Shown here: in pieces, positions 2,417-22,941 of the stretch
How the letters are laid out: each line of letters begins with the position of its first letter
Position numbering within the stretch: position 1 is the first letter of the stretch
IMG/VR virus record: IMGVR_UViG_3300046167_000884
Span: 56,009 to 120,008 of that record
Length of the DNA stretch: 64,000 nt
Source of the DNA: a virus
Direction: 5' to 3' (one strand)
The notes under the pieces: generated by a model
Told to the model about the DNA's origin: nothing
The model's database searches: none
What the model saw: the letters and a program-made list of their open reading frames with translations, nothing else
Translations under genes and position numbers: made by a program

Positions 2417-3727
2417 ATGAGTATATTCGATAAATTTTTTACAAAATTCGCTTACAAATTCGACAAAGGATATCCTGACATGAATAATGATCAGGATGTT
2501 TTGTTGTTGGAGTCACTTATTAGTGAAGTATTAGGTGAAAGATATAGTTTAGAAGAAGCTAATATGGTTGGATCCGCTACAAATTATCCTTCTGTTACTG
2601 GGACTTGGGAAAAATATATTGAAAACCCACTATCTAAACATGAAGACGGAAAAACAACTTATACTGCAATAAAAACATCTCCAGTATGGATTAAAACTCC
2701 ATCAAATAATATTGAAAAAACAGATGTAATAGTAAATGTAAATGATACGTTTACTATTAGTTCTAGGTCTACTGATGATTTAATAAAAAAAGGAAGTTCT
2801 TATTATGCTCCTATTAATTATAAAGGAAAGGAATACTATTTCCCCTTTAATGCTATACTAAAACCTACAGGCAAAAATGTCCAAAAATTTGAACCTAATT
2901 TAGATTCTAAAAATGACCCATCAGTTTATCATGCCTTCACCCCAGGCCATCCACAAGAAGCAAATATTGCAATGTTATTTATTGAAAAAACATCTCCTGA
3001 TTGGGAATTTGAATATAAAGGAAAATCATTAAAAGTAATATATTTAGGTGATCCTAATGTTAAAAGTACTGGTTATCCTAAAAATGATTTACAAATTAAT
3101 ACTGAACCTGCCCCTGAAGGTTTAGATTCTTCAATGAGGATTAGTTTAAAAGCAGATAATGCTACTTACGTAGAGAATTGGATGACTTCTACTAGAGCAG
3201 AACAGATATTAGGTGATACCAAAGTAAAAGAAATTGTTTTAGGAGCATATAATGCTTTATTAAAATCAACACCACCTAGATCTGGTAAAGGTTTATTTAA
3301 AGGAACCCTTAAATCATATCAAATTTGTATGTTTATTAAAGACAAACAACCACCGTATGGATCAGAAGCACCTTCAATACTATCAGAACCCCTATCTAAA
3401 GATGAGGCATATGAAGCTTATACAGGGGATAAAAAGTTTGGGGATACTGATGGGTCAGCTAATTATTTTTATAAAGGAGGAAAACCAAAAACAACAACAG
3501 AATTTCTGGGAGATTTAAAACCATTCAAAGATAATATGGATAATTTATCAGATTTATGGGTTTCTTTAAGGGGATCTAATGAATCAGGTAAAGGAAGAAG
3601 TAGAGTATTTTATTGGGAAGGAAAAGATGATGATCCAAATGGAAAATGGATTATAAATCCATTATGGGCAGAAATAGCTGGGATAACCAAATCAGAAGAT
3701 AAAGAAGGTAATATAAAATATAGTTAA
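2417..3727 (+). CDS. Hypothetical protein, possible PD-(D/E)xK nuclease-like domain after an N-terminal leader
   Basis: 436 aa; PKNDLQI...MRISLK resembles the D...(S/E)xK core; N-terminal segment ends LLLE/SLEE. Confidence 0.45.
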   Translation: MSIFDKFFTKFAYKFDKGYPDMNNDQDVLLLESLISEVLGERYSLEEANMVGSATNYPSVTGTWEKYIENPLSKHEDGKTTYTAIKTSPVWIKTPSNNIEKTDVIVNVNDTFTISSRSTDDLIKKGSSYYAPINYKGKEYYFPFNAILKPTGKNVQKFEPNLDSKNDPSVYHAFTPGHPQEANIAMLFIEKTSPDWEFEYKGKSLKVIYLGDPNVKSTGYPKNDLQINTEPAPEGLDSSMRISLKADNATYVENWMTSTRAEQILGDTKVKEIVLGAYNALLKSTPPRSGKGLFKGTLKSYQICMFIKDKQPPYGSEAPSILSEPLSKDEAYEAYTGDKKFGDTDGSANYFYKGGKPKTTTEFLGDLKPFKDNMDNLSDLWVSLRGSNESGKGRSRVFYWEGKDDDPNGKWIINPLWAEIAGITKSEDKEGNIKYS

Positions 3728-3736
3728 TATTTATAA
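3727..3736 (+). promoter_or_regulatory. ATATTTATAA motif, putative phage late promoter
   Basis: Exact motif recurs just upstream of at least 12 mostly structural gene starts. Confidence 0.6.
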
Positions 3737-3745
3737 TAAAACAAT

Positions 3746-4930
3746 ATGTGTAACTGCGGATGTAATACTTGCGAAACTAAAACAAAAGGACCTTTACTTA
3801 CTGAAAGTAAAGTTAAATCTTTATTATCCGAAGGTCTACAATATCACATAGATAAAAAAATACCATTATTTGAAACAGTATATCGTATTGGTTCAGATAA
3901 ACATCTAGCCTTAATTAAAGAAGCTAGAAAAATGTATTCACGTAACATAATTGATTTATGTGAAGATGATGAAGCACTAATTAAAACACATTTAGGTGAA
4001 TTTGCTTTATATGAAGGTGAATCTGTACCATTAGATTTACCTATGTTAAATGAATCAGATTCTAACTATCCAGATTTTGATTTAAATAAAAACATAAGAT
4101 ACAAAGATACATCTATTTCAAGCGGAATGTGGAGATATACAGGTCAAGAACAAGGTGGAAAAGGCGTTTATAGAAATTTAAATAATGATCAAATATTAGC
4201 TTTTGATAGAAGTGATTTTGATATATTTAAAAACAATCTTGGTAGTCATTTTGATATTTCAGAATCATTAAATGAATTTTCATTACCTAAATTTGATGTA
4301 GTAAAACCTATTATTGATAAATTTTTAGGTGGGATAGAAAAAGCTGGTAAAAAACTATTACAAATAGTTAAACGAGAAGGTAAACAGACTTTAGTATTAA
4401 TTAAAGAAATAGCCGAATACGTAGTAAGTGGAGAAAAACCAACATCATCTGAACAGAAAAAAATTACAGAACAATTAAAGGATTTAGGTTTTTTAGCTTT
4501 TTTAGGAATAGCAGGTAATATTCCTTTTTCATTATTTTCTATAATTTATTTTATAATAGATGAATCAGGCATAGCTAAAGAATTTTTAAAATTAAATGAG
4601 TCATTAAATGAAGATGAACAATTAGACGAAAAGAAAAAGGCTAAGAAAAAAGAAAAAAAAGACCCACCATTAAATAAACCAAAACGTGGTGGTTCTAAAG
4701 CATATTATGTTTATGTACGTGATCCTAAAACTAAAAAAATTAAAAAAGTATCATTTGGATCCGGTGGTTTAAGAGCTAAAATTAAAAACAAAGAAGCTCG
4801 TACTGCATTTGCCGCTAGACATAATTGTAAAAATAAAAAAGATAGAACTAAAGCAGGATATTGGTCATGTAATTTACCAAGATACGCTCCAGCATTAGGA
4901 TTAGGTGCTAAAATGAATACTTTTTGGTAG
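3746..4930 (+). CDS. Modular protein with N-terminal CxCxCxxC, LNE-bounded inserts and basic C-terminal domain
   Basis: Starts MCNCGCNTC; internal MLNE/SLNE/KLNE/QLDE; C-terminus RAKIKNKEARTAFAARHNC...GYWSC. Confidence 0.6.
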   Translation: MCNCGCNTCETKTKGPLLTESKVKSLLSEGLQYHIDKKIPLFETVYRIGSDKHLALIKEARKMYSRNIIDLCEDDEALIKTHLGEFALYEGESVPLDLPMLNESDSNYPDFDLNKNIRYKDTSISSGMWRYTGQEQGGKGVYRNLNNDQILAFDRSDFDIFKNNLGSHFDISESLNEFSLPKFDVVKPIIDKFLGGIEKAGKKLLQIVKREGKQTLVLIKEIAEYVVSGEKPTSSEQKKITEQLKDLGFLAFLGIAGNIPFSLFSIIYFIIDESGIAKEFLKLNESLNEDEQLDEKKKAKKKEKKDPPLNKPKRGGSKAYYVYVRDPKTKKIKKVSFGSGGLRAKIKNKEARTAFAARHNCKNKKDRTKAGYWSCNLPRYAPALGLGAKMNTFW

Positions 4931-4931
4931 T

Positions 4932-5204
4932 ATGAAAATAGATATATTTAATGAAATACACTGGTTAAATTTTAGGAAATTACCTGAAATTCAACCTTTA
5001 TCATTAAATGAACAAGTAAAAAAATACAACCTTTACATAAATGAACTTACGTATGAACGTAATGTATATTTACATTGGTTAGAGGGACATAAAAAAGGTC
5101 CTAAAAGAACAACTCTTCAAGAAACAGGTTTTTTATTGCAAGAGGATTTATTTGATTTAGAACAAGAAAACGGAAGTAAAATTTTAATAACAGGATATGC
5201 CTAA
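4932..5204 (+). CDS. Hypothetical protein
   Basis: 90-aa ORF overlapping the next start. Confidence 0.65.
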   Translation: MKIDIFNEIHWLNFRKLPEIQPLSLNEQVKKYNLYINELTYERNVYLHWLEGHKKGPKRTTLQETGFLLQEDLFDLEQENGSKILITGYA

Positions 5205-5712
5205 TTTACCTATTTCAGGATTACCAGCTTCATCTACATTACAAGGAGATGAATTATTTGCCGATGTACAAGGTGGTGTAACTAAATATACTACTTTAGA
5301 TGATGTAACAAGCTATGTAAGTGGCTCAATTGAAGTCTATAATCAAACTAACCCTAATAACTCATATATAGTTCCCGTAACTTTAACAGTTGAAAAAGGA
5401 GATACAATTAATTTATCAGATACTGTATATCAAAATGCTTCTATGATTGAATTATCATGGAGTGGAGAGACTAACCCAGATGTAACTCTAAATCTTCCAG
5501 ATGCAACAAATGCTAATAATACTTATAGAACAATAAGATTTATTTCTGATTCAACCTTTATCAATTCTAGTCATCATGTTGATTTAACTCCAACAGGAGG
5601 TCAAACATTAGATGGAAGTACAAACCCTTATGTAATAAATAAAGCATATGAAGGTATTATGGTATGGTCAGATGGAGCAGAATGGTTTATAATACAGAAA
5701 AAAGCTGGATAA
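5197..5712 (+). CDS. Putative virion structural/fibre-like protein
   Basis: N-terminal MPNLPISGLPASSTLQGDELFADVQGG resembles starts of phage tail/fibre proteins; S/T/N-rich body. Confidence 0.45.
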   Translation: MPNLPISGLPASSTLQGDELFADVQGGVTKYTTLDDVTSYVSGSIEVYNQTNPNNSYIVPVTLTVEKGDTINLSDTVYQNASMIELSWSGETNPDVTLNLPDATNANNTYRTIRFISDSTFINSSHHVDLTPTGGQTLDGSTNPYVINKAYEGIMVWSDGAEWFIIQKKAG

Positions 5713-5960
5713 TGAACCCATACAAAAATAAAGGTAACATAAGAACGTTTTCGAAAGATGTAAATAAACTAGAACTAGTTTGGCATCAAGACGCTGAAGA
5801 TAGAGATATCGAAGTATTAGAAGGCAAAGGATGGGAATTACAAATGGATAATGAATTACCCTTTGAATTAGTAAAGGGAGATCGTATATTTATAACAGAA
5901 GGTAGAATACACCGAATATTAAAAGGCATAACAGATTTAAAAATAAAAATAAATGGATAA
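5712..5960 (+). CDS. Small cupin-like protein
   Basis: ELVWHQD...VLEG...ELPFEL..GDRIFI...HRILKG double-His pattern. TAATG coupling at 5710-5714 supports this start over 5664. Confidence 0.55.
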   Translation: MNPYKNKGNIRTFSKDVNKLELVWHQDAEDRDIEVLEGKGWELQMDNELPFELVKGDRIFITEGRIHRILKGITDLKIKING

Positions 5961-6246
5961 CTTTAATTTAAGAAAATATTTAGCTGAAGGAAAATTACAT
6001 GAAGAACAAGTAATGGGATATGCTGTACTTATAAATGGTAAATTCTATAATAATAAAGTATACAAATCAGAATCAGTAGCTAATGGACAGTTAACTACAT
6101 TACTAGGTGATGTAAAAAGTGAATTAGGTCTTGAAGGTGGAAGAAAAGATCAATATTATTTTGGTACTAAAAAAGGAGATAAAGATTTAGAACAACGTTT
6201 AAAAGATTTAGAACAAGCTAAAGTAGTAGCTGTAACCTATAAATAA
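5953..6246 (+). CDS. Leader-tagged cassette protein 1 (MDNFNLRKYLAEGKLHE)
   Basis: Conserved leader followed by a unique payload. Confidence 0.85.
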   Translation: MDNFNLRKYLAEGKLHEEQVMGYAVLINGKFYNNKVYKSESVANGQLTTLLGDVKSELGLEGGRKDQYYFGTKKGDKDLEQRLKDLEQAKVVAVTYK

Positions 6247-6252
6247 AAATAA

Positions 6253-6894
6253 ATGGATAACTTCGATTTAAAAAAATATTTAGCTGAAGGTCGCTTATTT
6301 AAAGAAGAAATAGACTACCCATCTATTAAAGATGAAATGAAAAAAATATATGATATAGATGTAGATCTAGATACCATTAAAGATTTTGTTACATCATATA
6401 ATGATAGTGAGGGTATGGATGTATTTGATACAACGGAACGAGAAGATTTTTATTTATATTTAAAAGATTTAGCTGAAGGCCTCTTATTTGAAGAAGAACA
6501 ATGGTTTGATCCCTCTAGCCCTTCACACGGTAAAGGATATAAAGTATTAGGCGATAAACCACAAGAAGGTGCTTTTTATGTAAGTGGATATGATTTTGAT
6601 AATGATAAAAGCTTTGAATATTATGTACTTGATCCTAATTATAATAAATACCTTACTGCTACCCAAGAATTATTAGGTCTTGCTGATGAACAGGGACACG
6701 AGTATGAAAGTATAGAACAGTATTATGATACAGTTAAAGCTTTTCAAAATGATTTAAGATCTTATGCTAAAGGAGGTAAGTTCGAAGGTGATGAGGTACC
6801 TAATTGGCTTATGCAAGATCTTGCTATGAGTTTTGGAACTGATTATGACCAATTTTATAGTGATGATGAAGACGAAGACGAAGACGATTATTAA
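6253..6894 (+). CDS. Leader-tagged cassette protein 2 (acidic; internal LAEGLLFEEE)
   Basis: Leader MDNFDLKKYLAEGRLFKEE; second partial leader at 6469-6498. Confidence 0.85.
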   Translation: MDNFDLKKYLAEGRLFKEEIDYPSIKDEMKKIYDIDVDLDTIKDFVTSYNDSEGMDVFDTTEREDFYLYLKDLAEGLLFEEEQWFDPSSPSHGKGYKVLGDKPQEGAFYVSGYDFDNDKSFEYYVLDPNYNKYLTATQELLGLADEQGHEYESIEQYYDTVKAFQNDLRSYAKGGKFEGDEVPNWLMQDLAMSFGTDYDQFYSDDEDEDEDDY

Positions 6895-6912
6895 AAATAA
6901 AATTAAAATAAA

Positions 6913-7464
6913 ATGGATAATTTCGATTTAAAAAAATATTTAGCTGAAGGAAGACTATTTGAAGAAGATTTTAAAAATCCAATTCTAGATAAATATTTAG
7001 AACTAAAAAAATCAGTAGATAACAATACAGCTTTTGAGTATGAACTATCAGATTTTATTAATGGTTTAGATAATACTGAACGTGAGGGATTAGAAAGCGA
7101 TTTAGGATTAGAAAGAGATGAGTTATATGAAGGTCGCTTATTAAAAGAAGAGATAATGGTTGACACCACTATTATGTTTGGTGGTAATGACTATATTAAA
7201 GATGTACTTACATCACCTGATGATTTTGGCTTTGATGAAGAAGATGCTGAATGGATTAAAAGTAATATTTTAACTGCTCCTAAAATGGTATCTATTGAAG
7301 ATTACATGGCTTTAGAGGATAAGTGGGTAGAACAAGCAGATTTAGATGTTGGAACAGGAGCAGATCGTGAGTCTGTTCTAGATGCTATTGATGTTCATAT
7401 TAAACAAGGATTAATAACTCCTGAAGAAGGAGAAGAAGCTAAAAAAATAGCACTAAAATTTTAA
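6913..7464 (+). CDS. Leader-tagged cassette protein 3 (acidic; internal LYEGRLLKEE)
   Basis: Leader plus internal partial leader at 7123-7152. Confidence 0.85.
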   Translation: MDNFDLKKYLAEGRLFEEDFKNPILDKYLELKKSVDNNTAFEYELSDFINGLDNTEREGLESDLGLERDELYEGRLLKEEIMVDTTIMFGGNDYIKDVLTSPDDFGFDEEDAEWIKSNILTAPKMVSIEDYMALEDKWVEQADLDVGTGADRESVLDAIDVHIKQGLITPEEGEEAKKIALKF

Positions 7465-7469
7465 AATAA

Positions 7470-7781
7470 ATGGATAACTTTGATCTAAAAAAATATTTAG
7501 CTGAAGGTAAATTATATGAACAAAAATCTCCTAAATTTAAAATAGGTGATTTTGTTCAACCTAAAAGCCGAGATAAATATGTAGGCCAAATTGAAGATGT
7601 TTATATTAATAAACCTGAAAATTTAGAAATAAAAGATGGTGAATATGTTTATTCAGTTGATAAATTAAATCACAGAGGAAAAGATGCAATGTCATTTGAT
7701 TTTAAAGAATCAGATTTAGAATCAATATCTGACCCAACTGAATATATAAAAAGTTTAACACCATATAAAAGAAGAAACTAA
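7470..7781 (+). CDS. Leader-tagged cassette protein 4 (SH3-like payload)
   Basis: Leader followed by KFKIGDFVQPK...YVGQIEDV. Confidence 0.85.
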   Translation: MDNFDLKKYLAEGKLYEQKSPKFKIGDFVQPKSRDKYVGQIEDVYINKPENLEIKDGEYVYSVDKLNHRGKDAMSFDFKESDLESISDPTEYIKSLTPYKRRN

Positions 7782-7782
7782 A

Positions 7783-8364
7783 ATGGATAATTTCGATTTA
7801 AAAAAATATTTAGCGGAAGGCCGCTTATTAAAAGAAGAATTAACTTTTTCTTTTGACGAATATAGCTATGAAATTGATGATGATGCCTATCAAGCAGAAG
7901 TAGAGGCAGGTATTAAAACTCAATTACCAAACATCTCAGATAAAGTTTTACAAGCAATCATAGATAGTTCTGTAGAATACTATTATGATCAAAGAGAAGA
8001 AGATGTACCTTCTAGTGATATCGTAGATATGGCAGTTGATTATTATAATGATGAAATGACTGGAGGCAGTAAACCATCTGCTCCAAGTCAAAAATATGAT
8101 TTATCTAGTGTTGATTTAAGTGGATTAGATAAAGGCCAAAAAGAAGCTTTTGATAAATTTGTAGATATTTACCTTAAACCTTATGGTGATACTGATGCAC
8201 AAGAAGATTTAGAACGCTACGTTAGACAATTTGGAAAAGTAGAAAATGCATACGATCTTGATTCTCTAATCCCAAACTCATTTCAGTACGACAGGGAGGA
8301 AAGGGAAGCTATGCAACTTCAATTGAGAAGAGCTTATTTAGATGATGATCAACCTATAAACTAA
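7783..8364 (+). CDS. Leader-tagged cassette protein 5 (acidic)
   Basis: Leader MDNFDLKKYLAEGRLLKEE; D/E/Y-rich payload. Confidence 0.85.
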   Translation: MDNFDLKKYLAEGRLLKEELTFSFDEYSYEIDDDAYQAEVEAGIKTQLPNISDKVLQAIIDSSVEYYYDQREEDVPSSDIVDMAVDYYNDEMTGGSKPSAPSQKYDLSSVDLSGLDKGQKEAFDKFVDIYLKPYGDTDAQEDLERYVRQFGKVENAYDLDSLIPNSFQYDREEREAMQLQLRRAYLDDDQPIN

Positions 8365-8370
8365 TATATT

Positions 8371-8436
8371 ATGAAATGTAATTGTAAAGTATGTAATTGC
8401 GGAACATCATGTGGATGTGATTGCTGTAATTGTTAA
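8371..8436 (+). CDS. 21-aa Cys-rich micro-protein MKCNCKVCNCGTSCGCDCCNC, metallothionein-like
   Basis: Translated by hand, not in the ORF track. ATG at 8371, TAA at 8434-8436, 9 Cys; fills the gap between cassettes 5 and 6. Confidence 0.7.
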   Translation: MKCNCKVCNCGTSCGCDCCNC

Positions 8437-8449
8437 AATATAAAATAAA

Positions 8450-8971
8450 ATGGACAATTTTGATTTAAAAAAATATTTAGCTGAAGGTAGGCTATTAAAA
8501 GAAAATATAGATATGGCTACAATACTTAGCCATGATGATTATAAAGAACTTTATATAGGAAATAGAGCTGAACATGATGCTTCTCCTGAAGAAGAACAAT
8601 TCAGTGATGAATATATAATTGACCTTAAACCAGGAATGTACCACATGATATTTTGGAATGATGAAGGTCCTGATTATAATGTTTATAATAGCAAAGAAGA
8701 ATATATAAAAGATTCTATTGTAAGTTTTTGGGACATCGAACACTTTGAAAGAAAATTTGGACTTACAGATGAATTAGATGCAGCTGGAGATAATTGGGAA
8801 AGTGTTTTTAATAAACATATAGAAGATAATTTAGATATGTATTATGAAGAACTAAATAGACTTATTAACAATTCAGAAGCTGATGGTGATTCAGCTAATG
8901 GGGTTGTTCTTTTACAAAATGGTAAAGTAGTAGCTGGTGAAGCAACTAATATAAGCAGAAGATTTGATTAA
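8450..8971 (+). CDS. Leader-tagged cassette protein 6 (acidic)
   Basis: Leader MDNFDLKKYLAEGRLLKEN; D/E-rich payload. Confidence 0.85.
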   Translation: MDNFDLKKYLAEGRLLKENIDMATILSHDDYKELYIGNRAEHDASPEEEQFSDEYIIDLKPGMYHMIFWNDEGPDYNVYNSKEEYIKDSIVSFWDIEHFERKFGLTDELDAAGDNWESVFNKHIEDNLDMYYEELNRLINNSEADGDSANGVVLLQNGKVVAGEATNISRRFD

Positions 8972-8977
8972 ACTAAA

Positions 8978-9013
8978 ATGGATAATTTTGATTTTAAAAA
9001 ACATATAGGATAG
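8978..9013 (+). CDS. Leader-only remnant MDNFDFKKHIG (extends to 9044 if one G is an error)
   Basis: Degenerate seventh leader with the same AACTAAAATG context as cassette 5. Confidence 0.4.
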   Translation: MDNFDFKKHIG

Positions 9014-9051
9014 ATTCATAGCCTATCCGATTAGAAATAATTAAAGAGATC

Positions 9052-9078
9052 TGTGGCCTCCATTTGGAGGTCACATTT
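9052..9078 (+). terminator. Hairpin closing the cassette array
   Basis: TGTGGCCTCC-ATTT-GGAGGTCACA with one G-U pair, followed by TTT. Confidence 0.55.
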
Positions 9079-9094
9079 AAGTTTCGTATATTAA
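9063..9094 (+). promoter_or_regulatory. Bacteroidota sigma70-type promoter
   Basis: TTTG-N20-TATATTAA. Confidence 0.7.
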
Positions 9095-9116
9095 CGTGTT
9101 AAAAATAGAAGTATAG

Positions 9117-9272
9117 ATGGATATAGATAAAGAATTTTATTTAGTAAGAAAAAATGAAGGTAATTCATTTCAAAGATTAATGATGTTTTTTTTAGAACAA
9201 AACAAAAAACATGGTGCAGATTTCGGAGTAGCAGGAATGTATAATACTTTAAATAGATTTTATGGTGAGTAA
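9117..9272 (+). CDS. Small hypothetical protein (51 aa)
   Basis: Translated by hand (MDIDKEFYLVRKNEG...NRFYGE); follows the promoter and overlaps the next start. Confidence 0.45.
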   Translation: MDIDKEFYLVRKNEGNSFQRLMMFFLEQNKKHGADFGVAGMYNTLNRFYGE

Positions 9273-10569
9273 AAACGTAGTAATGATTGGAGCAGGTGTA
9301 GCAAATGTAAATGCTGCTACCAAGCTAGTTGACAATGGGTTTAAAGGTAAAATCACTATTATTGATATGGGTAAAGACCCATATTTAAGACCTTATGAAG
9401 AGGTAATGACAGGTTTCCTAGGAGCAGGAGGTTGGTCTGATGGTAAATTAACTTATCATACTTCAATTGGAGGGCAATTATCTAAATATTGTGGTGAAGA
9501 AAAAGCAATGGAATTATTTGATCAGGTGATAGATAATTTTAAACGATTCCATCCTAAACCAGAAGAGGTACAATGCTCAAATCCAGTTGCAGAACCAGAT
9601 TTTATTAAACCATATTTCGGTTTACGTTTATTCCCTGTATGGCACGTTGGTACAGATTATTTACATGAGATTGGTAAAAATTGGTATGATTTCTTAGTTG
9701 ATAATGGTGTAGAATTTATTTGGGAAACTAAAGTATATGCTATTGATTTTGTAAATGAAAGGGTATTAGGTAAATCATTAATTAAAGATTTAGAATATGA
9801 ACGTAGGTATGATAAACTCATATTTGGTGTAGGTAAATCAGGTATTGATTTTGGTAAACAATTAGCAGAGGAATATGATCTGCCAACTGAATCTAAACCA
9901 GTACAAATAGGTGTTAGATTTGAAGCACCACAAAAACACTTTCAAAAATTAATTGATGTAAGCTATGATTTCAAATTATATAGAAAATATGAAGACAAAG
10001 GCGTATCACTACGTTCATTCTGTACAAATAATAATGCAGCTTATGTTGCCGTTGAGGAAACATATGGAGATCACAGTTACAATGGACACGCTAAAAAAGA
10101 TGAAGCATTCCGAAATGATATGACCAATTTTGGTATATTAATGGAAGTACAAGGTATTGATAAACCATTTGATTGGTCAAGAGAAGTAGTTAAAAACTTA
10201 CAAATAGATGGTACAGGATTATATTATAGCCCAACACGTAAACCCTCTACAACATCTGAAGGTGTAAATGTATCAGCTATTCAAGTAGATACATTACATA
10301 AAATAGCAAAATCAATGCAACCATACTTTATGTATGTATATGATTTTATTGAGGACATGAAAAAAGTGTTTCCAACATTAAAAGACGATTGGGGTATTTA
10401 TGTACCTGAAGTAAAATATCTATCACCTGAGCCACTTGTCGATTATACCAATTTAGCACTCACCAAGTATCCTAACGTACACTTCGTAGGCGATGCTTTA
10501 TCAGCTAGAGGTATAACGGTAAGTGGTGCACAAGGGACATATGTTGCTGAATCACTTTTGGAGAACTAA
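9262..10569 (+). CDS. FAD/NAD(P)-dependent oxidoreductase (COG2509-like)
   Basis: VVMIGAGVAN Rossmann motif, GFLGAGGWSDGKL, QIGVRFEAP, FCTNN, C-terminal VGDALSARGITVSG. Confidence 0.8.
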   Translation: MVSKNVVMIGAGVANVNAATKLVDNGFKGKITIIDMGKDPYLRPYEEVMTGFLGAGGWSDGKLTYHTSIGGQLSKYCGEEKAMELFDQVIDNFKRFHPKPEEVQCSNPVAEPDFIKPYFGLRLFPVWHVGTDYLHEIGKNWYDFLVDNGVEFIWETKVYAIDFVNERVLGKSLIKDLEYERRYDKLIFGVGKSGIDFGKQLAEEYDLPTESKPVQIGVRFEAPQKHFQKLIDVSYDFKLYRKYEDKGVSLRSFCTNNNAAYVAVEETYGDHSYNGHAKKDEAFRNDMTNFGILMEVQGIDKPFDWSREVVKNLQIDGTGLYYSPTRKPSTTSEGVNVSAIQVDTLHKIAKSMQPYFMYVYDFIEDMKKVFPTLKDDWGIYVPEVKYLSPEPLVDYTNLALTKYPNVHFVGDALSARGITVSGAQGTYVAESLLEN

Positions 10570-11430: not shown

Positions 11431-12114
11431 ATGAAAAAATCTGAATTAAAAAATTATATTAGAGAAAATATTATCTCTACATTATCTGAAGATACTGAGG
11501 CAGAAATTGAAAAAACTAAAGAATTAACTTCAGCAATTAAAGATCTTGAAGCTGCTAAAAAAGAAGCTGGTATAGAAGAAGATGCAACCCCTAAAGGTGA
11601 AGATTTTTTTTATGATTATTTAGATATTGGTATGTCTTATTTAGAAGGATTTGGTAAAAAACATTCTTTAGATGACAGTCAGTTAGAAAAACTAGGTAAA
11701 AAAATAGTAGATCAATTATATAAAGGTGATGTTGGTAAAGCATATGATGCTATTGTTAAAAGGGGCTCAATGAAAGAAGCATCATACTCTAATCAATATG
11801 TAAATAAAAATAGGATTGCAAGTAATAAGTATAAACAAGCTAATACTTACAAAAAATCATATGATAGTCTTGCCCAAGTGGCATCAGAAAAACAATTTGA
11901 TGATGATAACATAGATAAAAAAGCTGTTAAAGGGGCTAAAAAAAATAAAGGTTTAGCTAAAGCAGCTGAAGAATTAGCTTTATTAACTCGTGATATGAAA
12001 TCATTGGCTAAAAAGTATTCCAAAGCTGAAGGTGAAGAAAAAGAAAAACTAGTAGCTGATCTTAAGAAAAAAACAAAACTTAAGAAAGAATTAGAAGCTA
12101 TTATAGACAAATAA
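11431..12114 (+). CDS. Charged helical protein, putative internal head protein
   Basis: Leader-like MKKSELKNYIRE; internal LSE/IEE/MKE. Confidence 0.55.
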   Translation: MKKSELKNYIRENIISTLSEDTEAEIEKTKELTSAIKDLEAAKKEAGIEEDATPKGEDFFYDYLDIGMSYLEGFGKKHSLDDSQLEKLGKKIVDQLYKGDVGKAYDAIVKRGSMKEASYSNQYVNKNRIASNKYKQANTYKKSYDSLAQVASEKQFDDDNIDKKAVKGAKKNKGLAKAAEELALLTRDMKSLAKKYSKAEGEEKEKLVADLKKKTKLKKELEAIIDK

Positions 12115-14389: not shown

Positions 14390-16309
14390 ATGGCTGATAA
14401 AAGCGTATTTTCAAGATTAAAAAGATTATTTTCAACTGATGTAATTATCAGGAATGTAGGGGGTAACCAAATAAAAACCGTTGATTCAGGTCACATCCAA
14501 TCTAGTGGGGAATATGAAACTAATTCGTTAGTTGATAGATATAATAGAATTTATTCTACTGCCCCTTCTTCATTATATGGTGCCCAATTTAACTTAAATT
14601 ACCAATATTTACGTACCATGATCTATTCAGAATATGATGTGATGGATCAAGATGCAATTATTGCTTCTGCCTTAGATATTTTAGCAGATGAATCTACTCT
14701 AAAAAACGATATGGGGGAGGTTCTTTCAATTAGGAGTGCTAATGAAGATATTCAAAATATATTATACAACCTATTTTATGATGTATTAAATATTGAATTT
14801 AATATGTGGATGTGGATTCGTCAAATGTGTAAATATGGTGACTTTTTCTTAAAACTAGAAATAGCTGAAAAATTTGGGGTATATAATGTTATACCTTATA
14901 CAGCTTATCATATGGAAAGACAAGAGGGGTATAATGAAGAAAACCCACAAGAAATTAGATACATTTACAACCCAGAAGGATTTGTAGGAGGAGGAACCAG
15001 CAGCTCAGGTTATTATACAGTAAATCAAAATCCAGATAATACAACAGGAATTGTATTTGACAACTATGAAATGGCTCATTTTAGATTAGTAGGTGATGTT
15101 AATTATCTTCCTTATGGTAGAGCTTACATAGAACCCGCTAGAAAGTTATTTAAGCAATATACCTTAATGGAGGATGCAATGTTAATTCATAGAATTGCTC
15201 GTGCCCCAGAAAAACGTATTTTTTATGTAAATGTAGGAGCCATTCCCCCTAATGAAATAGAAACATTTATGCAAAAAACTATTTCAAGTATGAAACGTAC
15301 CCCGTTTATGGATGAAAAAACAGGAGAATATAATTTAAAATATAACATGCAAAATATGTTAGAAGATTTTTATATCCCTGTTCGTGGTAATGATAATACT
15401 ACTAAAATAGATACTACCCCAGGATTACAATATGATGGTATTCAAGATGTAGAATATTTAAGAGGTAAACTATTTGCAGCTCTTAAAATTCCAAAAGCAT
15501 TTTTAGGGTATGAAGAAGGTTTAGAAGGTAAAGCTACATTAGCGCAACAAGATATTAGATTTGCTCGTACCATTGATAGAATCCAAAGAATTATATTATC
15601 GGAGCTAAATAAAATTGCTTTAGTTCACTTATATACTCAAGGGTATACAGATGAAACATTAACAAACTTTACATTAAACATGACTACTCCTTCGATCATA
15701 TATGATCAGGAAAGAATTGAGTTAATGAAATCAAAAGCCGAATTATCTGCTACTTTACTAGAACAAGGTTTAGTACCATCTGATTGGATTTATGATAATA
15801 TTTACCACTTTAGTGAAGACCAATATGATGAGTATAGAGATCTAGTTAGAGAAGATGCTAAACGTAAATTTAGAATAGCACAAATTGAAGCAGAAGGAAA
15901 TGATCCCGTTGAAACAGGTAAATCATATGGTACCCCTCATGATTTAGCTTCATTATATGGTAAAGGAAGAATGTATAATGATCCAGGGAATGTCCCAGAC
16001 CCAGAAAAGTATGCGGCTGATGATCCTAAACTAGGTAGACCAAAGGATACCAATGTTAAACGTAATACACAAGACGATAATTTTGGTAAAGATAGATTAG
16101 GAACTAAACGCATGAAAGATAAAGATAAAAATGATTCTAATGCTATCCGTCCTAAATTTAAAGGTGGTAGTCCACTAGCTCTTGAAAGTGCTAAAACTGT
16201 TTTCTTAAAAAACAAAGATATTTTTAAAAAAATGACCCAAAAGAAATTAATTTTTGAGGAAGATAAGGATACATCTTCATTATTAGATGAAAACCAATTA
16301 AAGAAGTAA
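14390..16309 (+). CDS. Portal protein (T4 gp20-like)
   Basis: EDAMLIHRIARAPEKRIFYVNVG, MLEDFYIPVRG, QDIRFARTIDRIQ. Confidence 0.93.
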   Translation: MADKSVFSRLKRLFSTDVIIRNVGGNQIKTVDSGHIQSSGEYETNSLVDRYNRIYSTAPSSLYGAQFNLNYQYLRTMIYSEYDVMDQDAIIASALDILADESTLKNDMGEVLSIRSANEDIQNILYNLFYDVLNIEFNMWMWIRQMCKYGDFFLKLEIAEKFGVYNVIPYTAYHMERQEGYNEENPQEIRYIYNPEGFVGGGTSSSGYYTVNQNPDNTTGIVFDNYEMAHFRLVGDVNYLPYGRAYIEPARKLFKQYTLMEDAMLIHRIARAPEKRIFYVNVGAIPPNEIETFMQKTISSMKRTPFMDEKTGEYNLKYNMQNMLEDFYIPVRGNDNTTKIDTTPGLQYDGIQDVEYLRGKLFAALKIPKAFLGYEEGLEGKATLAQQDIRFARTIDRIQRIILSELNKIALVHLYTQGYTDETLTNFTLNMTTPSIIYDQERIELMKSKAELSATLLEQGLVPSDWIYDNIYHFSEDQYDEYRDLVREDAKRKFRIAQIEAEGNDPVETGKSYGTPHDLASLYGKGRMYNDPGNVPDPEKYAADDPKLGRPKDTNVKRNTQDDNFGKDRLGTKRMKDKDKNDSNAIRPKFKGGSPLALESAKTVFLKNKDIFKKMTQKKLIFEEDKDTSSLLDENQLKK

Positions 16310-18071: not shown

Positions 18072-19325
18072 ATGAAATCACCAGAACAATTACATAAAGA
18101 ATTAACAGAAAAGTTAATTACAGAAAATTATGTAGACTTACATCCCATTTCTACATTTGAAGCAACTCCAAAACAAGATTTTGAAACTAAGTTTGCTCAA
18201 TTCTTAGCAGAGAAAAAAGGGGAGGAATTAAAACCTATTGTTAATACAGACGAATCAATTAATACTCTAAAAGATTCAGAAGGAATATCAGCAGATTCTA
18301 AGGCTAAATTTGAAGGTAAAGGATTTCAAGCTTCCTATAAAGTAGATAAAACTTTAGAAAATATTGATTCTCATAATTATGATTACAATACTACCTTAGA
18401 AAATATTAATAATGTTAATGGTGAAGAATTATTAAAAGGTGTTCAATTAGAAACTAGTTATAATAGTGAATTAACTTTAGACGAAGCTAAAGAACTTGTA
18501 ATTAAAAACCTAGCTAAAGATCCTTTACATTATGTAAAGGAAGGTCAATTTGGTATTAAAGGCTTAGGATATACAGAAGCTAAAACACAAAAAGCAGATG
18601 GTAAACATGCTGCTAGTGGTTATAGTGAAAAACTAAAAGATAGCGATAACACATTTGACTTAGTAAAAGAAAGTATAGGTGGTGTAGTTACAACAGGACA
18701 CAACCCTTGGACAATAATTGCAGATGAAATTCTTCATGAAGAAGAAGAAGAAAAAAAATTACCAATGGATGAAGGAGATGCTGAAGACGCTAGGCAAGAA
18801 GCTATAGATGCTTCAAATGAAAGTGCGGGTGTTGAAGAAGATAAAAGACCAGATTATCCAGACGTAGATGGAGATGGTGATACTAAAGAACCAATGGAAA
18901 AAGCACTTAAAGACAAGAAAAGCAAAAAGATGAAAAAAGAATCAATTGATAGTAAATTAGCTGAAATAGGAAAAGCAGGTGATGTTACAAAATTAGAAGC
19001 TCAACTAGAATTTTTAACTAACCATATTGATGAAAAAATTCAAAGAGTAAGTTCAATTAATGAAGATGATAATCTTAAAGAATTAATTGATAAAAAGAAA
19101 ATGAAAGACATGCAAAAAGAAATTAAGCTTTTAGAAAAAAGAAAAGCTGGAATGGAAAAAATGTATGAAAAAATGTGTGGTAAAAAATACCAAAAAGAAG
19201 AAATTGTAGATGAAGCAGATGAAGTAAGTTGGAATGAAAAAAACAACCCAACACGTGGAGCTGCTGGTGAAAGAGACCCAAAACAAGTAGGACAATCAGT
19301 TTCTGATTATGCTATAAATAAATAA
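18072..19325 (+). CDS. Acidic head-associated protein, putative prohead core/internal protein
   Basis: Many xxE sites (ITE, VKE, LHE, INE, VDE); DVDGDGD motif; immediately upstream of the protease. Confidence 0.55.
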   Translation: MKSPEQLHKELTEKLITENYVDLHPISTFEATPKQDFETKFAQFLAEKKGEELKPIVNTDESINTLKDSEGISADSKAKFEGKGFQASYKVDKTLENIDSHNYDYNTTLENINNVNGEELLKGVQLETSYNSELTLDEAKELVIKNLAKDPLHYVKEGQFGIKGLGYTEAKTQKADGKHAASGYSEKLKDSDNTFDLVKESIGGVVTTGHNPWTIIADEILHEEEEEKKLPMDEGDAEDARQEAIDASNESAGVEEDKRPDYPDVDGDGDTKEPMEKALKDKKSKKMKKESIDSKLAEIGKAGDVTKLEAQLEFLTNHIDEKIQRVSSINEDDNLKELIDKKKMKDMQKEIKLLEKRKAGMEKMYEKMCGKKYQKEEIVDEADEVSWNEKNNPTRGAAGERDPKQVGQSVSDYAINK

Positions 19326-19329
19326 AATT

Positions 19330-19938
19330 ATGGGTAAAACACTCTTAATAGAAACTAATACCTTTAAATTATCATCACCTTTATTAACTGAAAATGTTAA
19401 TAAGGATAATGGTAATGTTTTAGTTGAGGGTATTTTAGCTACAGCTGAAGTAAAAAATGGTAATGGTCGTTACTATTCAAAAGAATTATGGCAACGCGAA
19501 ATGGATAAATATAATGAGCTTATTGAACAAAGACGCTCAATGGGAGAATTAGACCACCCAGAATCCACTGTTGTAAATTTAAAAAATGTTTCTCATATTA
19601 TAAATGAATACTGGTGGGATGGAGACCAAGTAATGGGTAAAATTGAAATATTACCTACCCCATCGGGTAACATACTTAAAGAACTTATTAAAAATGGGTG
19701 TACTGTAGGAGTATCATCTAGAGGTATGGGTTCATTAGAACAAAGGGGTGAAATAATGGAAGTACAAGATGACTTTGAATTATTATGTTGGGATTTTGTT
19801 TCAACTCCTTCAAACCCTGGTTCTTATATGCATGAAATTCTTAAAGAAGGTAAAGAAAATTACACTTACGATTATACAAATGTTAATAAATTAATACATG
19901 AAATTCTTTGTTCAAAAGGATCATGTCCTATAACTTAA
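19330..19938 (+). CDS. Prohead protease (T4 gp21-like)
   Basis: NGNGRYY, MGELDHP, VGVSSRGMGS, WDFVSTPS. Confidence 0.93.
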   Translation: MGKTLLIETNTFKLSSPLLTENVNKDNGNVLVEGILATAEVKNGNGRYYSKELWQREMDKYNELIEQRRSMGELDHPESTVVNLKNVSHIINEYWWDGDQVMGKIEILPTPSGNILKELIKNGCTVGVSSRGMGSLEQRGEIMEVQDDFELLCWDFVSTPSNPGSYMHEILKEGKENYTYDYTNVNKLIHEILCSKGSCPIT

Positions 19939-20116: not shown

Positions 20117-21274
20117 ATGGCAAACAATGATTTGTTAAAAGAAGCAATTGCCGATGCTAAAGCTGTTAAAGAAACTGCTATTGCAAACGCAAAACTTGCT
20201 CTTGAAGAAGCATTCACACCACATTTGAAATCTATGCTTTCAGCAAAATTAGAAGAAATGGACAAAGAAGACGTTGACGAAGGATACGACGAAGACGTTA
20301 AAGAAGAAATGGATTCTAAAGATGACATGAAAGAAGGAGAAGATGAAGTGTATGAAGAAAAAGAAGAGCTTGATGAAATTGACCTTGACGAACTACTTGC
20401 TGAACTTGAATTGGATGAAGACAAACGTACAGATGCTGAACAAGAAGGCTATAAGGACGGATTCGAAGACGCTAAAGACGACATCGAAAAAGAACTTAAA
20501 TCTATGAAAGTATCAGAAGCAAAAGACGAAGATGAAAAAGTTGACGAAGCTAAAAAAGGCGACGACAAGGATGACATTAAGGAAGATGCTAGAACTGATG
20601 CTGAAGAAGAAGGCTACCTTGACGGTATGAAAGACGAAAAAGAAGACGAAGAAGACAAAATCGACGATGAAGAAATTGATCTAGAAGATATGTCAGAAGA
20701 CGACTTAAAAGGATTCATTGAGGATGTTATTAAAGATTTAGTAACAGACGGAACAATTGAAGCTGGCGAAGATTTTGAAGAGGAAGATGTTGAAGACGAA
20801 GTTGAAGTTGAAGACGATGTAGAAGTTGATGTAGAAATCGACGAAGCAGTTGACGGCGAAAAAGGTGTTGGAAACGAAGATGGAGACAAAGATGACTCCA
20901 AAGTTGAGAAAGAAACTGAAAAAATGAGATTTAAAGAAGCCTTAGATGAAATCGAAGCTCTTAAAGTTGAATTACAAGAAGTTAATTTACTTAATGCTAA
21001 GTTACTTTACACAAACAAAGTATTCAAATCTAAAAACTTAACTGAAGACAAAAAAGTTAGAGTGCTTAAAGCATTTGATAAAGCGTCAACAGTAAAAGAA
21101 GCTAAAGTTATTTTTGATACATTAAACGAAGGTTTAGTGTCTAAAACAGCTGCTCCTGCAAGACCAAAAGGTAGTGCATCTAAAGCAACTGGTGCAATAA
21201 CTGAAGCTAAAAAACCTATTATTGAAAGCAATGATGTATACAACCGTATGCGTAAACTTGCTGGATTAATTTAA
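20117..21274 (+). CDS. Prohead core scaffold protein (T4 gp22-like)
   Basis: Very acidic coiled-coil protein between protease and capsid; ends RMRKLAGLI. Confidence 0.85.
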   Translation: MANNDLLKEAIADAKAVKETAIANAKLALEEAFTPHLKSMLSAKLEEMDKEDVDEGYDEDVKEEMDSKDDMKEGEDEVYEEKEELDEIDLDELLAELELDEDKRTDAEQEGYKDGFEDAKDDIEKELKSMKVSEAKDEDEKVDEAKKGDDKDDIKEDARTDAEEEGYLDGMKDEKEDEEDKIDDEEIDLEDMSEDDLKGFIEDVIKDLVTDGTIEAGEDFEEEDVEDEVEVEDDVEVDVEIDEAVDGEKGVGNEDGDKDDSKVEKETEKMRFKEALDEIEALKVELQEVNLLNAKLLYTNKVFKSKNLTEDKKVRVLKAFDKASTVKEAKVIFDTLNEGLVSKTAAPARPKGSASKATGAITEAKKPIIESNDVYNRMRKLAGLI

Positions 21275-21309: not shown

Positions 21310-22941
21310 ATGAGCTTAAATACTCTTTTAGAAAGTGCGAACCCATATCACTCAATGCAGAGTGACGCAGCCAAATTGGCATCAAAATGGGAAAAAACAG
21401 GTTTACTAGAAGGCCTTCAAGGAGCAAATAAATCCAACATGGGTATTATTCTTGAAAACCAAGCTAAACAACTTGTAGTAGAAGAATCTAACACTGGCGG
21501 TGGTGCTGGAGCTGGTCAATTTCAGGCTGGTACTGGTGCACAATGGGCTGGAGTAGCTTTACCATTGGTAAGAAAAGTATTTGGTCAGATTGCAGCGAAA
21601 GAATTCGTTAGCGTTCAGCCAATGAACTTACCTTCTGGTCTTGTATTCTACCTAGATTTCCAATATGGAACAGGAAAAACCCCATTTACAGCAACTGAAT
21701 CTCTATATGGAGATGCAGGAACTGACCCTTCAACTTCTCCTTTCGGGAACACTAATTCAGGTGGCCTTTATGGACAAGGAAGATATGGATATTCTATTAA
21801 CACAACAGCATCTGCTGTAGCTACAGTAACAACTGCTTCAGCTGATAGATCTGATGTTAATTTTAATTCATTATTCACAGCTTCTTTAGCTGCTGGAGAT
21901 ATTAAAGTATGTCCAATTCCACTTGCTTCTCTTGATGCAAATTACGACCCAGAAGCAATTAGAAGTTTCTACTTAGAAGGTGCAAATGCTCCTACAGTAG
22001 CACAACAATACCCACAATTTACTAAAATTGTAGGTACAGATCTTCAGTTAATAGTAGATGCAGATTCATTTGATCCTGCTGCTGCAACTTCAATTTCTTA
22101 TTCACTAAAAACATTAGATTATGAAAGAGGTGATTTTGAAGATGGAAATAATAACCTAAATGGTAATAACTCTCCAATTTCAATTCCTGAAATTAACGTA
22201 CAGATGCAATCATCTGCTATTGTAGCTAAAACTCGTAAGTTAAAAGCTGTATGGACTCCTGAGTTCGCACAAGACTTGAATGCTTACCACGCTTTAGATG
22301 CTGAAGCAGAATTGACTTCTATCTTAAGTGAGTACATTTCATTAGAAATTGACATGGAAATCTTAGACATGCTACAAGAATCTGCTGCTGCAGGTACTGA
22401 AGTATGGTCAGCTGTAAACAACCAAGCTATTGTAGATAATGGTACTAATGGTACATTCTCAGATCTAGGATTTTACAACAGCCAAGGACAATGGTTCCAA
22501 ACACTTGGAACTAAAATCCAAAAATTAAGTAACGCTATCCACCAGAAAACTCTACGTGGTGGTGCTAACTTTATGGTAATTTCTCCAACAATTGGTACTA
22601 TCTTGGAATCAATTCCTGGATACGCTGCTGATGCTGATGGAGACGTGTCTAAATCTACTTATGCCTTTGGTGTACAAAAAGTAGGTGCATTTAACGGAAG
22701 AATGAAAGTATACAAAAATCCTTACCAAACTGAAAACCAAATCCTATTAGGGTTTAGAGGTGCTCAGTTCTTGGAAACAGGTGCTGTATTTGCTCCATAC
22801 ATTCCATTAATCATGACTCCACTTATCTACGATCCATCTACCTTCACACCACGTAAAGGATTGATGACTCGTTACGCTAAGAAAATGGTACGTCCTGAAT
22901 TCTACGGATTGATTAAAGTATCTGGTTTAGAGACTCTATAG
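21310..22941 (+). CDS. Major capsid protein (T4 gp23-like)
   Basis: ALPLVRKVFG, VQPMNLPSGLVFYLDF, AKTRKLKAVWTPEFAQDL, APYIPL, PRKGLMTRYA. Confidence 0.96.
   Translation: MSLNTLLESANPYHSMQSDAAKLASKWEKTGLLEGLQGANKSNMGIILENQAKQLVVEESNTGGGAGAGQFQAGTGAQWAGVALPLVRKVFGQIAAKEFVSVQPMNLPSGLVFYLDFQYGTGKTPFTATESLYGDAGTDPSTSPFGNTNSGGLYGQGRYGYSINTTASAVATVTTASADRSDVNFNSLFTASLAAGDIKVCPIPLASLDANYDPEAIRSFYLEGANAPTVAQQYPQFTKIVGTDLQLIVDADSFDPAAATSISYSLKTLDYERGDFEDGNNNLNGNNSPISIPEINVQMQSSAIVAKTRKLKAVWTPEFAQDLNAYHALDAEAELTSILSEYISLEIDMEILDMLQESAAAGTEVWSAVNNQAIVDNGTNGTFSDLGFYNSQGQWFQTLGTKIQKLSNAIHQKTLRGGANFMVISPTIGTILESIPGYAADADGDVSKSTYAFGVQKVGAFNGRMKVYKNPYQTENQILLGFRGAQFLETGAVFAPYIPLIMTPLIYDPSTFTPRKGLMTRYAKKMVRPEFYGLIKVSGLETL

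What the first reader, a model, noticed from the sequence alone, without database searches (positions are those of the whole stretch)
5953..9044. Tandem array of leader-tagged cassette genes: candidate capsid-targeting system for hypervariable injected proteins
Seen: six consecutive genes share only the N-terminal MDNF(D/N)L(K/R)KYLAEG(R/K)L(L/F/Y/H)(K)E and then diverge completely (mostly acidic payloads, one SH3-like). Leader codons vary synonymously (AAT/AAC, TTC/TTT, TTA/CTA, GCT/GCG; Arg as CGC, AGA or AGG), so selection acts on the peptide, not a DNA element. Established: T4 internal proteins IPII/IPIII share the capsid-targeting sequence MKTYQEFIAE, removed by the gp21 protease after Glu in (I/L)-X-E, and T4 IPI* is injected to block the GmrSD restriction enzyme. 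This window encodes a gp21-like protease, and the leader ends in LAE then LxE. Inference: this is a packaging tag on a swappable set of injected anti-defence or host-takeover proteins, with the repeated leader DNA also acting as a recombination handle.
Basis: partly seen in the sequence, partly recalled or inferred. Interest (0 to 1): 0.92.

Follow-up and report, generated by a model that had tools for sequence, protein, structure and literature searches.

The report
Head-loading tag on swappable phage genes
An uncultured marine T4-related phage puts the same 18-residue N-terminal tag on six neighbouring, unrelated, mostly acidic proteins; the tag most likely loads them into the phage head and is then cut off, as phage T4 does with its internal proteins, but neither packaging nor cutting has been measured.

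Summary
Six adjacent + strand genes (5953-8971) start with MDNF(D/N)L(K/R)KYLAEG(K/R)L..E and are otherwise unrelated. There is also a truncated seventh leader (8978-9013) and two internal half-leaders.

The window is part of a 120-kb IMG/VR phage record with a T4-type head module: gp20 portal, S77/gp21 protease, acidic scaffold and gp23 capsid protein.

- **Spread.** The leader occurs in at least 118 viral contigs and on 1,299 protein clusters (50% identity).
- **Variable slot.** The array fills a slot between two conserved genes. In 49 relatives the slot holds 0-5 different cassettes, and DNA homology breaks at the leader's end.
- **Link to the head.** In one relative, three tagged genes lie between the protease and scaffold genes. 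In another, a head-core protein next to the protease carries the full leader internally.
- **Modularity.** Homologous payloads occur behind different leaders, always joined just after (L/I)-x-E, or with no leader at all.

Best reading (about 0.62): a capsid-targeting, protease-removed propeptide analogous to, but not homologous with, the T4 CTS. Injection and anti-defence roles are untested, and payload functions are unknown.

This is a new variant of a known kind. The scan has noted similar leader arrays, including this same leader, on other genomes.

The parts
3727..3736 (+). Promoter-like motif ATATTTATAA ahead of gene 3746; probable start of the operon that runs through the array
   Evidence: 15 copies in the window, all on the + strand, against 2.7 expected. 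Most lie 2-30 nt before the start codons of portal, sheath-neighbour and other structural genes. That it is a late promoter is inferred.
5664..5960 (+). Conserved upstream flank gene (98 aa) that bounds the variable slot
   Evidence: A homologue is present in 62 of 118 leader-bearing loci. DNA homology with close relatives runs from 5711 to 5990-6013.
5953..6246 (+). Cassette 1: leader plus a 78-aa basic payload (pI 8.7), with no relative in the sampled loci
6253..6894 (+). Cassette 2: leader plus an acidic two-module payload; internal half-leader DLAEGLLFEEE at 6469-6501
   Evidence: Fused forms with the same module boundaries appear (P0024).
6913..7464 (+). Cassette 3: leader, an N-module (DFKNPILDKYL...), the internal half-leader EGRLLKEEI (7129-7158), then a C-module
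   Evidence: The same N-module sits behind a different leader in L116 and L092 and is fused to the ORF5 payload in P0010.
7470..7781 (+). Cassette 4: leader plus a small beta-barrel payload
   Evidence: 48 homologues. Some carry other leaders (P0143, P0151) and two have none (P0172, P0173). AF2 pLDDT 78; weak Tudor/PWWP/SH3-like matches.
7783..8364 (+). Cassette 5: leader plus two helical domains, acidic
   Evidence: AF2 pLDDT 79.5. No PDB fold match.
8371..8436 (+). Leaderless 21-aa, 9-Cys micro-ORF inside the array
   Evidence: The Cys pattern is conserved in about 20 related loci.
8450..8971 (+). Cassette 6: leader plus a 154-aa acidic payload
   Evidence: ESM Atlas gave no usable hit.
8978..9013 (+). 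Truncated seventh leader (MDNFDFKKHIG*): the 5' half of a leader joined at its A-run to the conserved downstream flank
   Evidence: Relatives have the flank sequence without the ATGGATAATTTTGATTT part. Downstream homology resumes at 8995-8997.
9008..9075 (+). Two hairpins that close the array; the second is terminator-like (9052-9075)
   Evidence: Both stems change in a compensating way in relatives. No Rfam match.
9262..10569 (+). Conserved downstream flank gene (435 aa, FAD-oxidoreductase-like)
   Evidence: A homologue is present in 67 of 118 loci. Pfam Pyr_redox_2 and phrog_12409.
11431..12114 (+). Gene with a second type of short leader (MKKSELKNYIRE...), preceded by the promoter-like motif
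   Evidence: Similar MKKxELKxLIKEE leaders head the slot genes of more distant relatives.
14390..16309 (+). T4-type portal (gp20 family)
   Evidence: Portal_T4, 226.8 bits.
18072..19325 (+). Acidic head-module protein between portal and protease; it contains QFLAE-K
   Evidence: Its homologue in L067 carries a complete internal leader. The immuto equivalent has HFIAE-A.
19330..19938 (+). Prohead protease, gp21/S77 family
   Evidence: Peptidase_S77, 101.8 bits. H76, S129 and D155 are invariant in the alignment with T4 gp21, at H85 and S140 by my count.
20117..21274 (+). Acidic scaffold-like protein (gp22 position); N-terminus MANNDLLKEAIADAK
   Evidence: It is the best non-leader match to the leader among the N-termini of 144 ORFs.
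21310..22941 (+). Major capsid protein, gp23 family; predicted maturation cut after E58 (QLVVE-ESNTG)
   Evidence: Gp23, 255.7 bits, with the domain starting at residue 77. The T4 FLTE-AEIGG site aligns here. The cut itself is inferred.

Best explanation
The 18-19-residue leader (MDNFDLKKYLAE-G(K/R)L..E) is a capsid-targeting propeptide. It is proposed to bring otherwise unrelated cargo proteins into the scaffolding core of the T4-type prohead. The phage's gp21-family (S77) protease would then remove it by cutting after Glu in (L/I/V/F)-x-E, at YLAE-G and/or at the L-x(x)-E that ends the leader. Internal half-leaders in fused cassettes would be cut in the same way, releasing separate modules. 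The cargo genes sit in a hypervariable slot between two conserved genes, upstream of the terminase-portal-protease-capsid module. They are probably transcribed with structural genes, and they are gained, lost, fused and re-tagged by recombination at or next to the leader. Shown here: the anatomy, the modularity of the leader, the variability of the slot, and the physical link to head genes. Inferred: packaging and cleavage. More weakly inferred: that the mostly acidic cargo stays in the head, is injected with the DNA and acts on the host, for example against defence systems.
For: 1. The leader sits on unrelated payloads. There are six copies in the window. Across 118 IMG/VR loci plus the window there are 163 tagged ORFs in 48 payload clusters. 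In 1.84 billion cluster representatives, 1,299 match the leader profile at E<=1e-3, and 126 of 133 inspected carry it at residue 1.
2. Selection acts on the peptide. Arg14 is written with six different codons, and positions 14-15, which the search pattern left free, are K/R (141/145) and L/I (145/145). The DNA upstream is only A-rich.
3. The phage has a T4-type head: Portal_T4, Peptidase_S77, Gp23 and an acidic scaffold. The protease keeps the H, S and D residues that are invariant with T4 gp21. The T4 gp23 maturation site FLTE-A aligns with QLVVE-E here and QIVSE-A in phage immuto, so [LIV]-x-E specificity is probably retained.
4. The leader is tied to head genes. In L044 three tagged genes lie between the protease and scaffold genes. 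In L067 the head-core protein directly upstream of the protease contains a complete internal leader plus a motif shared with the scaffold. Four of five long leader-bearing contigs encode S77.
5. The leader is a detachable module joined at L-x-E. Kinase: MISLVQLLRE-AQGNPK (G000) versus MDNFNLKKYLAEGILLKE-AQGNPK (L102), 205/274 identical. The same payloads also occur behind MKELYRFRQFLTEG. The ORF4 family has members with other leaders and members with none.
6. Polyproteins use half-leaders as linkers. The internal motif E[GN][KR][LI]x1-2E occurs 17 times against 0.66 in shuffles.
7. The slot is hypervariable: 121-3272 nt and 0-5 cassettes in 49 loci. Relatives whose upstream flank protein is 95-98% identical carry different cassettes. 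DNA homology ends at 5990-6013 (the leader is 5953-6009) and resumes at 8995-8997.
8. A promoter-like motif is shared with portal and other structural genes, and a terminator-like hairpin closes the array.
9. The precedent exists. T4 internal proteins share only a 10-20-residue CTS that loads them into the core and is cut off by gp21, and they form a diverse anti-restriction set (PMC3012670, PMC5694885, PMC12373910).
Against: No virion proteomics, N-terminal data or cleavage assay exists for this phage group; phage immuto, the only cultured relative with a related leader, has none that I could find. [LIV]-x-E is common: 24 of 71 ORFs in the window have one in residues 6-22, so the motif alone is weak evidence. 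The leader has no sequence similarity to the T4 CTS (MKTYQEFIAE). The payloads are strongly acidic (median pI 4.24, 84% below 5), whereas T4 IPs, as I recall, are basic and DNA-associated; acidic proteins might be expelled rather than kept next to DNA. In this genome the array lies about 10 kb upstream of the protease. The nearest promoter-like motif, at 5886, is atypical: it is inside a gene and 57 nt from the ATG. The leader's resemblance to the scaffold N-terminus ranks first here, but the same test in T4 gave only rank 12 of 410.
Confidence: 0.62

Rival explanations
1. The leader does target proteins to the prohead and is cleaved, but the acidic payloads are auxiliary core or scaffold components, comparable to T4 gp67/gp68. 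They would act only during assembly and then be degraded or expelled, so they are not injected effectors.
For: The payloads are as acidic as the scaffold (pI 4.0-4.3 against 4.17). The L067 head-core protein combines the leader with a scaffold-like motif. In L044 the tagged genes lie between protease and scaffold. Many payloads contain several potential cut sites.
Against: An assembly role does not explain why the slot is empty in some relatives, or why it holds entirely different, non-homologous sets in relatives with nearly identical flanks. Some payloads are folded domains or enzymes, namely a Zeta-toxin-like kinase and a beta-barrel. The number of payload clusters (1,299) looks more like arms-race diversification.
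Confidence: 0.18
2. The leader is a shared N-terminal interaction or regulatory peptide unrelated to the capsid. It might be a docking helix for a host or phage factor, a chaperone or degradation tag, or a localisation signal acting in the cytoplasm.
For: The leader is a short, charged helix-forming segment (helix at residues 6-13 at modest pLDDT). There is no direct evidence of packaging. The array is not inside the head module in this genome.
Against: This does not explain the constant (L/I)-x-E at the leader-payload junction, the half-leader linkers in polyproteins, the placement of tagged genes between protease and scaffold, or the internal leader in a head-core protein. The leader is not hydrophobic and does not resemble a secretion signal.
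Confidence: 0.13
3. The conserved stretch is a DNA- or RNA-level element, such as a recombination site or a translation-initiation region. It would be carried along with each cassette, and the peptide itself would have no function.
For: Copies share about 88% identity over 45 nt plus an A-rich spacer. Homology breakpoints and a scar lie in or at the leader. T4's two CTS copies are identical in DNA.
Against: Synonymous sites vary freely while the residues stay fixed or change conservatively, for example six Arg codons at position 14. Leaders are no more alike within a genome than between genomes (0.886 against 0.879; 82 of 500 permutations reach the observed value). Several unrelated leader sequences keep the same peptide logic, ending in L-x-E. 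The upstream DNA is not conserved beyond an A-run.
Confidence: 0.05

Closest known systems
Capsid targeting sequence (CTS) of phage T4 internal proteins IPI, IPII, IPIII (and Alt), removed by the gp21 prohead protease; the polymorphic ip loci of T-even phages
   Same: A 10-20-residue N-terminal peptide is the only thing shared by otherwise unrelated small proteins. It ends in (L/I)-x-E. The genome encodes a gp21-family protease and a gp20/gp22/gp23-type head. The gene set differs between related phages at a hotspot (PMC3012670, PMC5694885, PMC12373910).
   Different: There is no sequence similarity between the leaders (MDNFDLKKYLAEG... against MKTYQEFIAE). The leader is longer and has two potential cut sites. 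Arrays reach six genes, and polyprotein fusions use half-leaders as linkers. Several leader types coexist. The payloads are mostly very acidic rather than basic. The repertoire is far larger: 1,299 clusters against 'at least 10' Ips reported for T-evens. The hosts are probably marine Bacteroidota. Nothing has been shown experimentally.
Propeptide-bearing ejection and inner-body proteins of giant phages (phiKZ, SPN3US), processed by an S80 prohead protease
   Same: Head-internal proteins carry N-terminal propeptides that are cut after Glu in a short motif. The paralogues gp53 and gp54 of SPN3US share an identical 15-residue N-terminus while the rest has diverged. Propeptides contain multiple cut sites (PMC5694885).
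   Different: Those propeptides are mostly longer than 100 residues, the protease belongs to family S80 and cuts at (A/S/G)-x-E, and no swappable tandem cassette slot has been described for them. Here the protease is S77.
Phage P1 Dar (defence against restriction) proteins packaged into the head
   Same: Anti-restriction proteins are loaded into the capsid during head morphogenesis and delivered with the DNA (PMC12810830, PMC9024508; known to me only from the titles and abstracts listed).
   Different: As far as I know, P1 loading depends on an ordered set of protein-protein interactions and not on one short leader shared by unrelated cargo. There is no gp21-type system and no cassette array.

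Membership tests
T4-type CTS-tagged internal head proteins | A short (10-20 aa) N-terminal peptide shared by otherwise unrelated proteins of one phage | tested here: met
   Six copies of an 18-19-aa leader; the payloads are unrelated.
T4-type CTS-tagged internal head proteins | The leader ends in the gp21 cleavage motif (L/I)-x-E | tested here: met
   YLAE is fixed by the search pattern. Free positions 15-19 give L/I in 145/145, followed by x(x)E. Swap junctions fall right after this Glu. Caveat: the motif is common; 24 of 71 ORFs have one near the N-terminus.
T4-type CTS-tagged internal head proteins | The genome encodes a gp21-family prohead protease and a T4-type portal, scaffold and capsid | tested here: met
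   Peptidase_S77 101.8 bits, Portal_T4 226.8 bits, Gp23 255.7 bits. Catalytic H/S/D are conserved. The gp23 cut site aligns.
T4-type CTS-tagged internal head proteins | The leader is homologous in sequence to the T4 CTS (MKTYQEFIAE / MKTFKEF...) | tested here: not met
   The T4 CTS was verified in NC_000866. The two leaders share nothing beyond the terminal hydrophobic-x-E. This is therefore an analogue, not a member by descent of the tag.
T4-type CTS-tagged internal head proteins | The gene set is polymorphic between related phages at a hotspot | tested here: met
   The slot holds 0-5 different cassettes in 49 loci. Homology breakpoints lie at the leader.
T4-type CTS-tagged internal head proteins | The proteins are present in the mature virion with the leader removed, and are injected with the DNA | not testable with these tools
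   This phage group is known only from metagenomes plus phage immuto, for which I found no proteome.
T4-type CTS-tagged internal head proteins | The leader is sufficient to load a foreign protein into the prohead | not testable with these tools
   This needs a leader-reporter fusion in a culturable relative.
Giant-phage (phiKZ/SPN3US) propeptide ejection proteins | S80-family protease and long (>100 aa) propeptides | tested here: not met
   The protease is S77 and the leader is 18-19 aa.
Integron-like gene cassettes | A recombination hairpin (attC) with each cassette, and an integrase next to the array | tested here: not met
   The only DNA repeated between cassettes is the A-rich spacer plus leader, about 70 nt. 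A single hairpin pair follows the whole array. None of the ten proteins of 3746-10569 that were scanned matched an integrase. A dedicated integrase search was not run.

The most novel reading that the evidence does not exclude
The tag marks a very large, modular head-cargo system in marine Bacteroidota-type T4-relatives. More than a thousand families of mostly acidic proteins and some enzymes would be encoded singly or as polyproteins whose half-leader linkers are cut by the prohead protease, loaded into capsids, and injected as a reshufflable counter-defence or takeover kit. If so, a single short peptide would be a searchable address label for finding packaged phage effectors in ocean viromes, and the acidic cargo (possible DNA mimics) would be a class unlike T4's IPs, which I recall as basic.
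Probability: 0.35. Interest if true: 0.82.

Novelty: new variant of a known kind. Interest (0 to 1): 0.6.

Why it matters
If the tag really loads proteins into the head, it extends the T4 internal-protein principle, so far studied in T-even coliphages, to an abundant uncultured marine phage lineage and on a much larger scale. It would also give a simple sequence handle for listing candidate injected effectors from metagenomes: 1,299 clusters at 50% identity are already retrievable. It would point to protease-released polyproteins as a way of packing several cargos behind one tag. And it would supply a natural targeting peptide for loading foreign proteins into non-coli phage capsids. One cultured relative, Flavobacterium phage immuto, carries a variant of the tag, so the idea can be tested directly.

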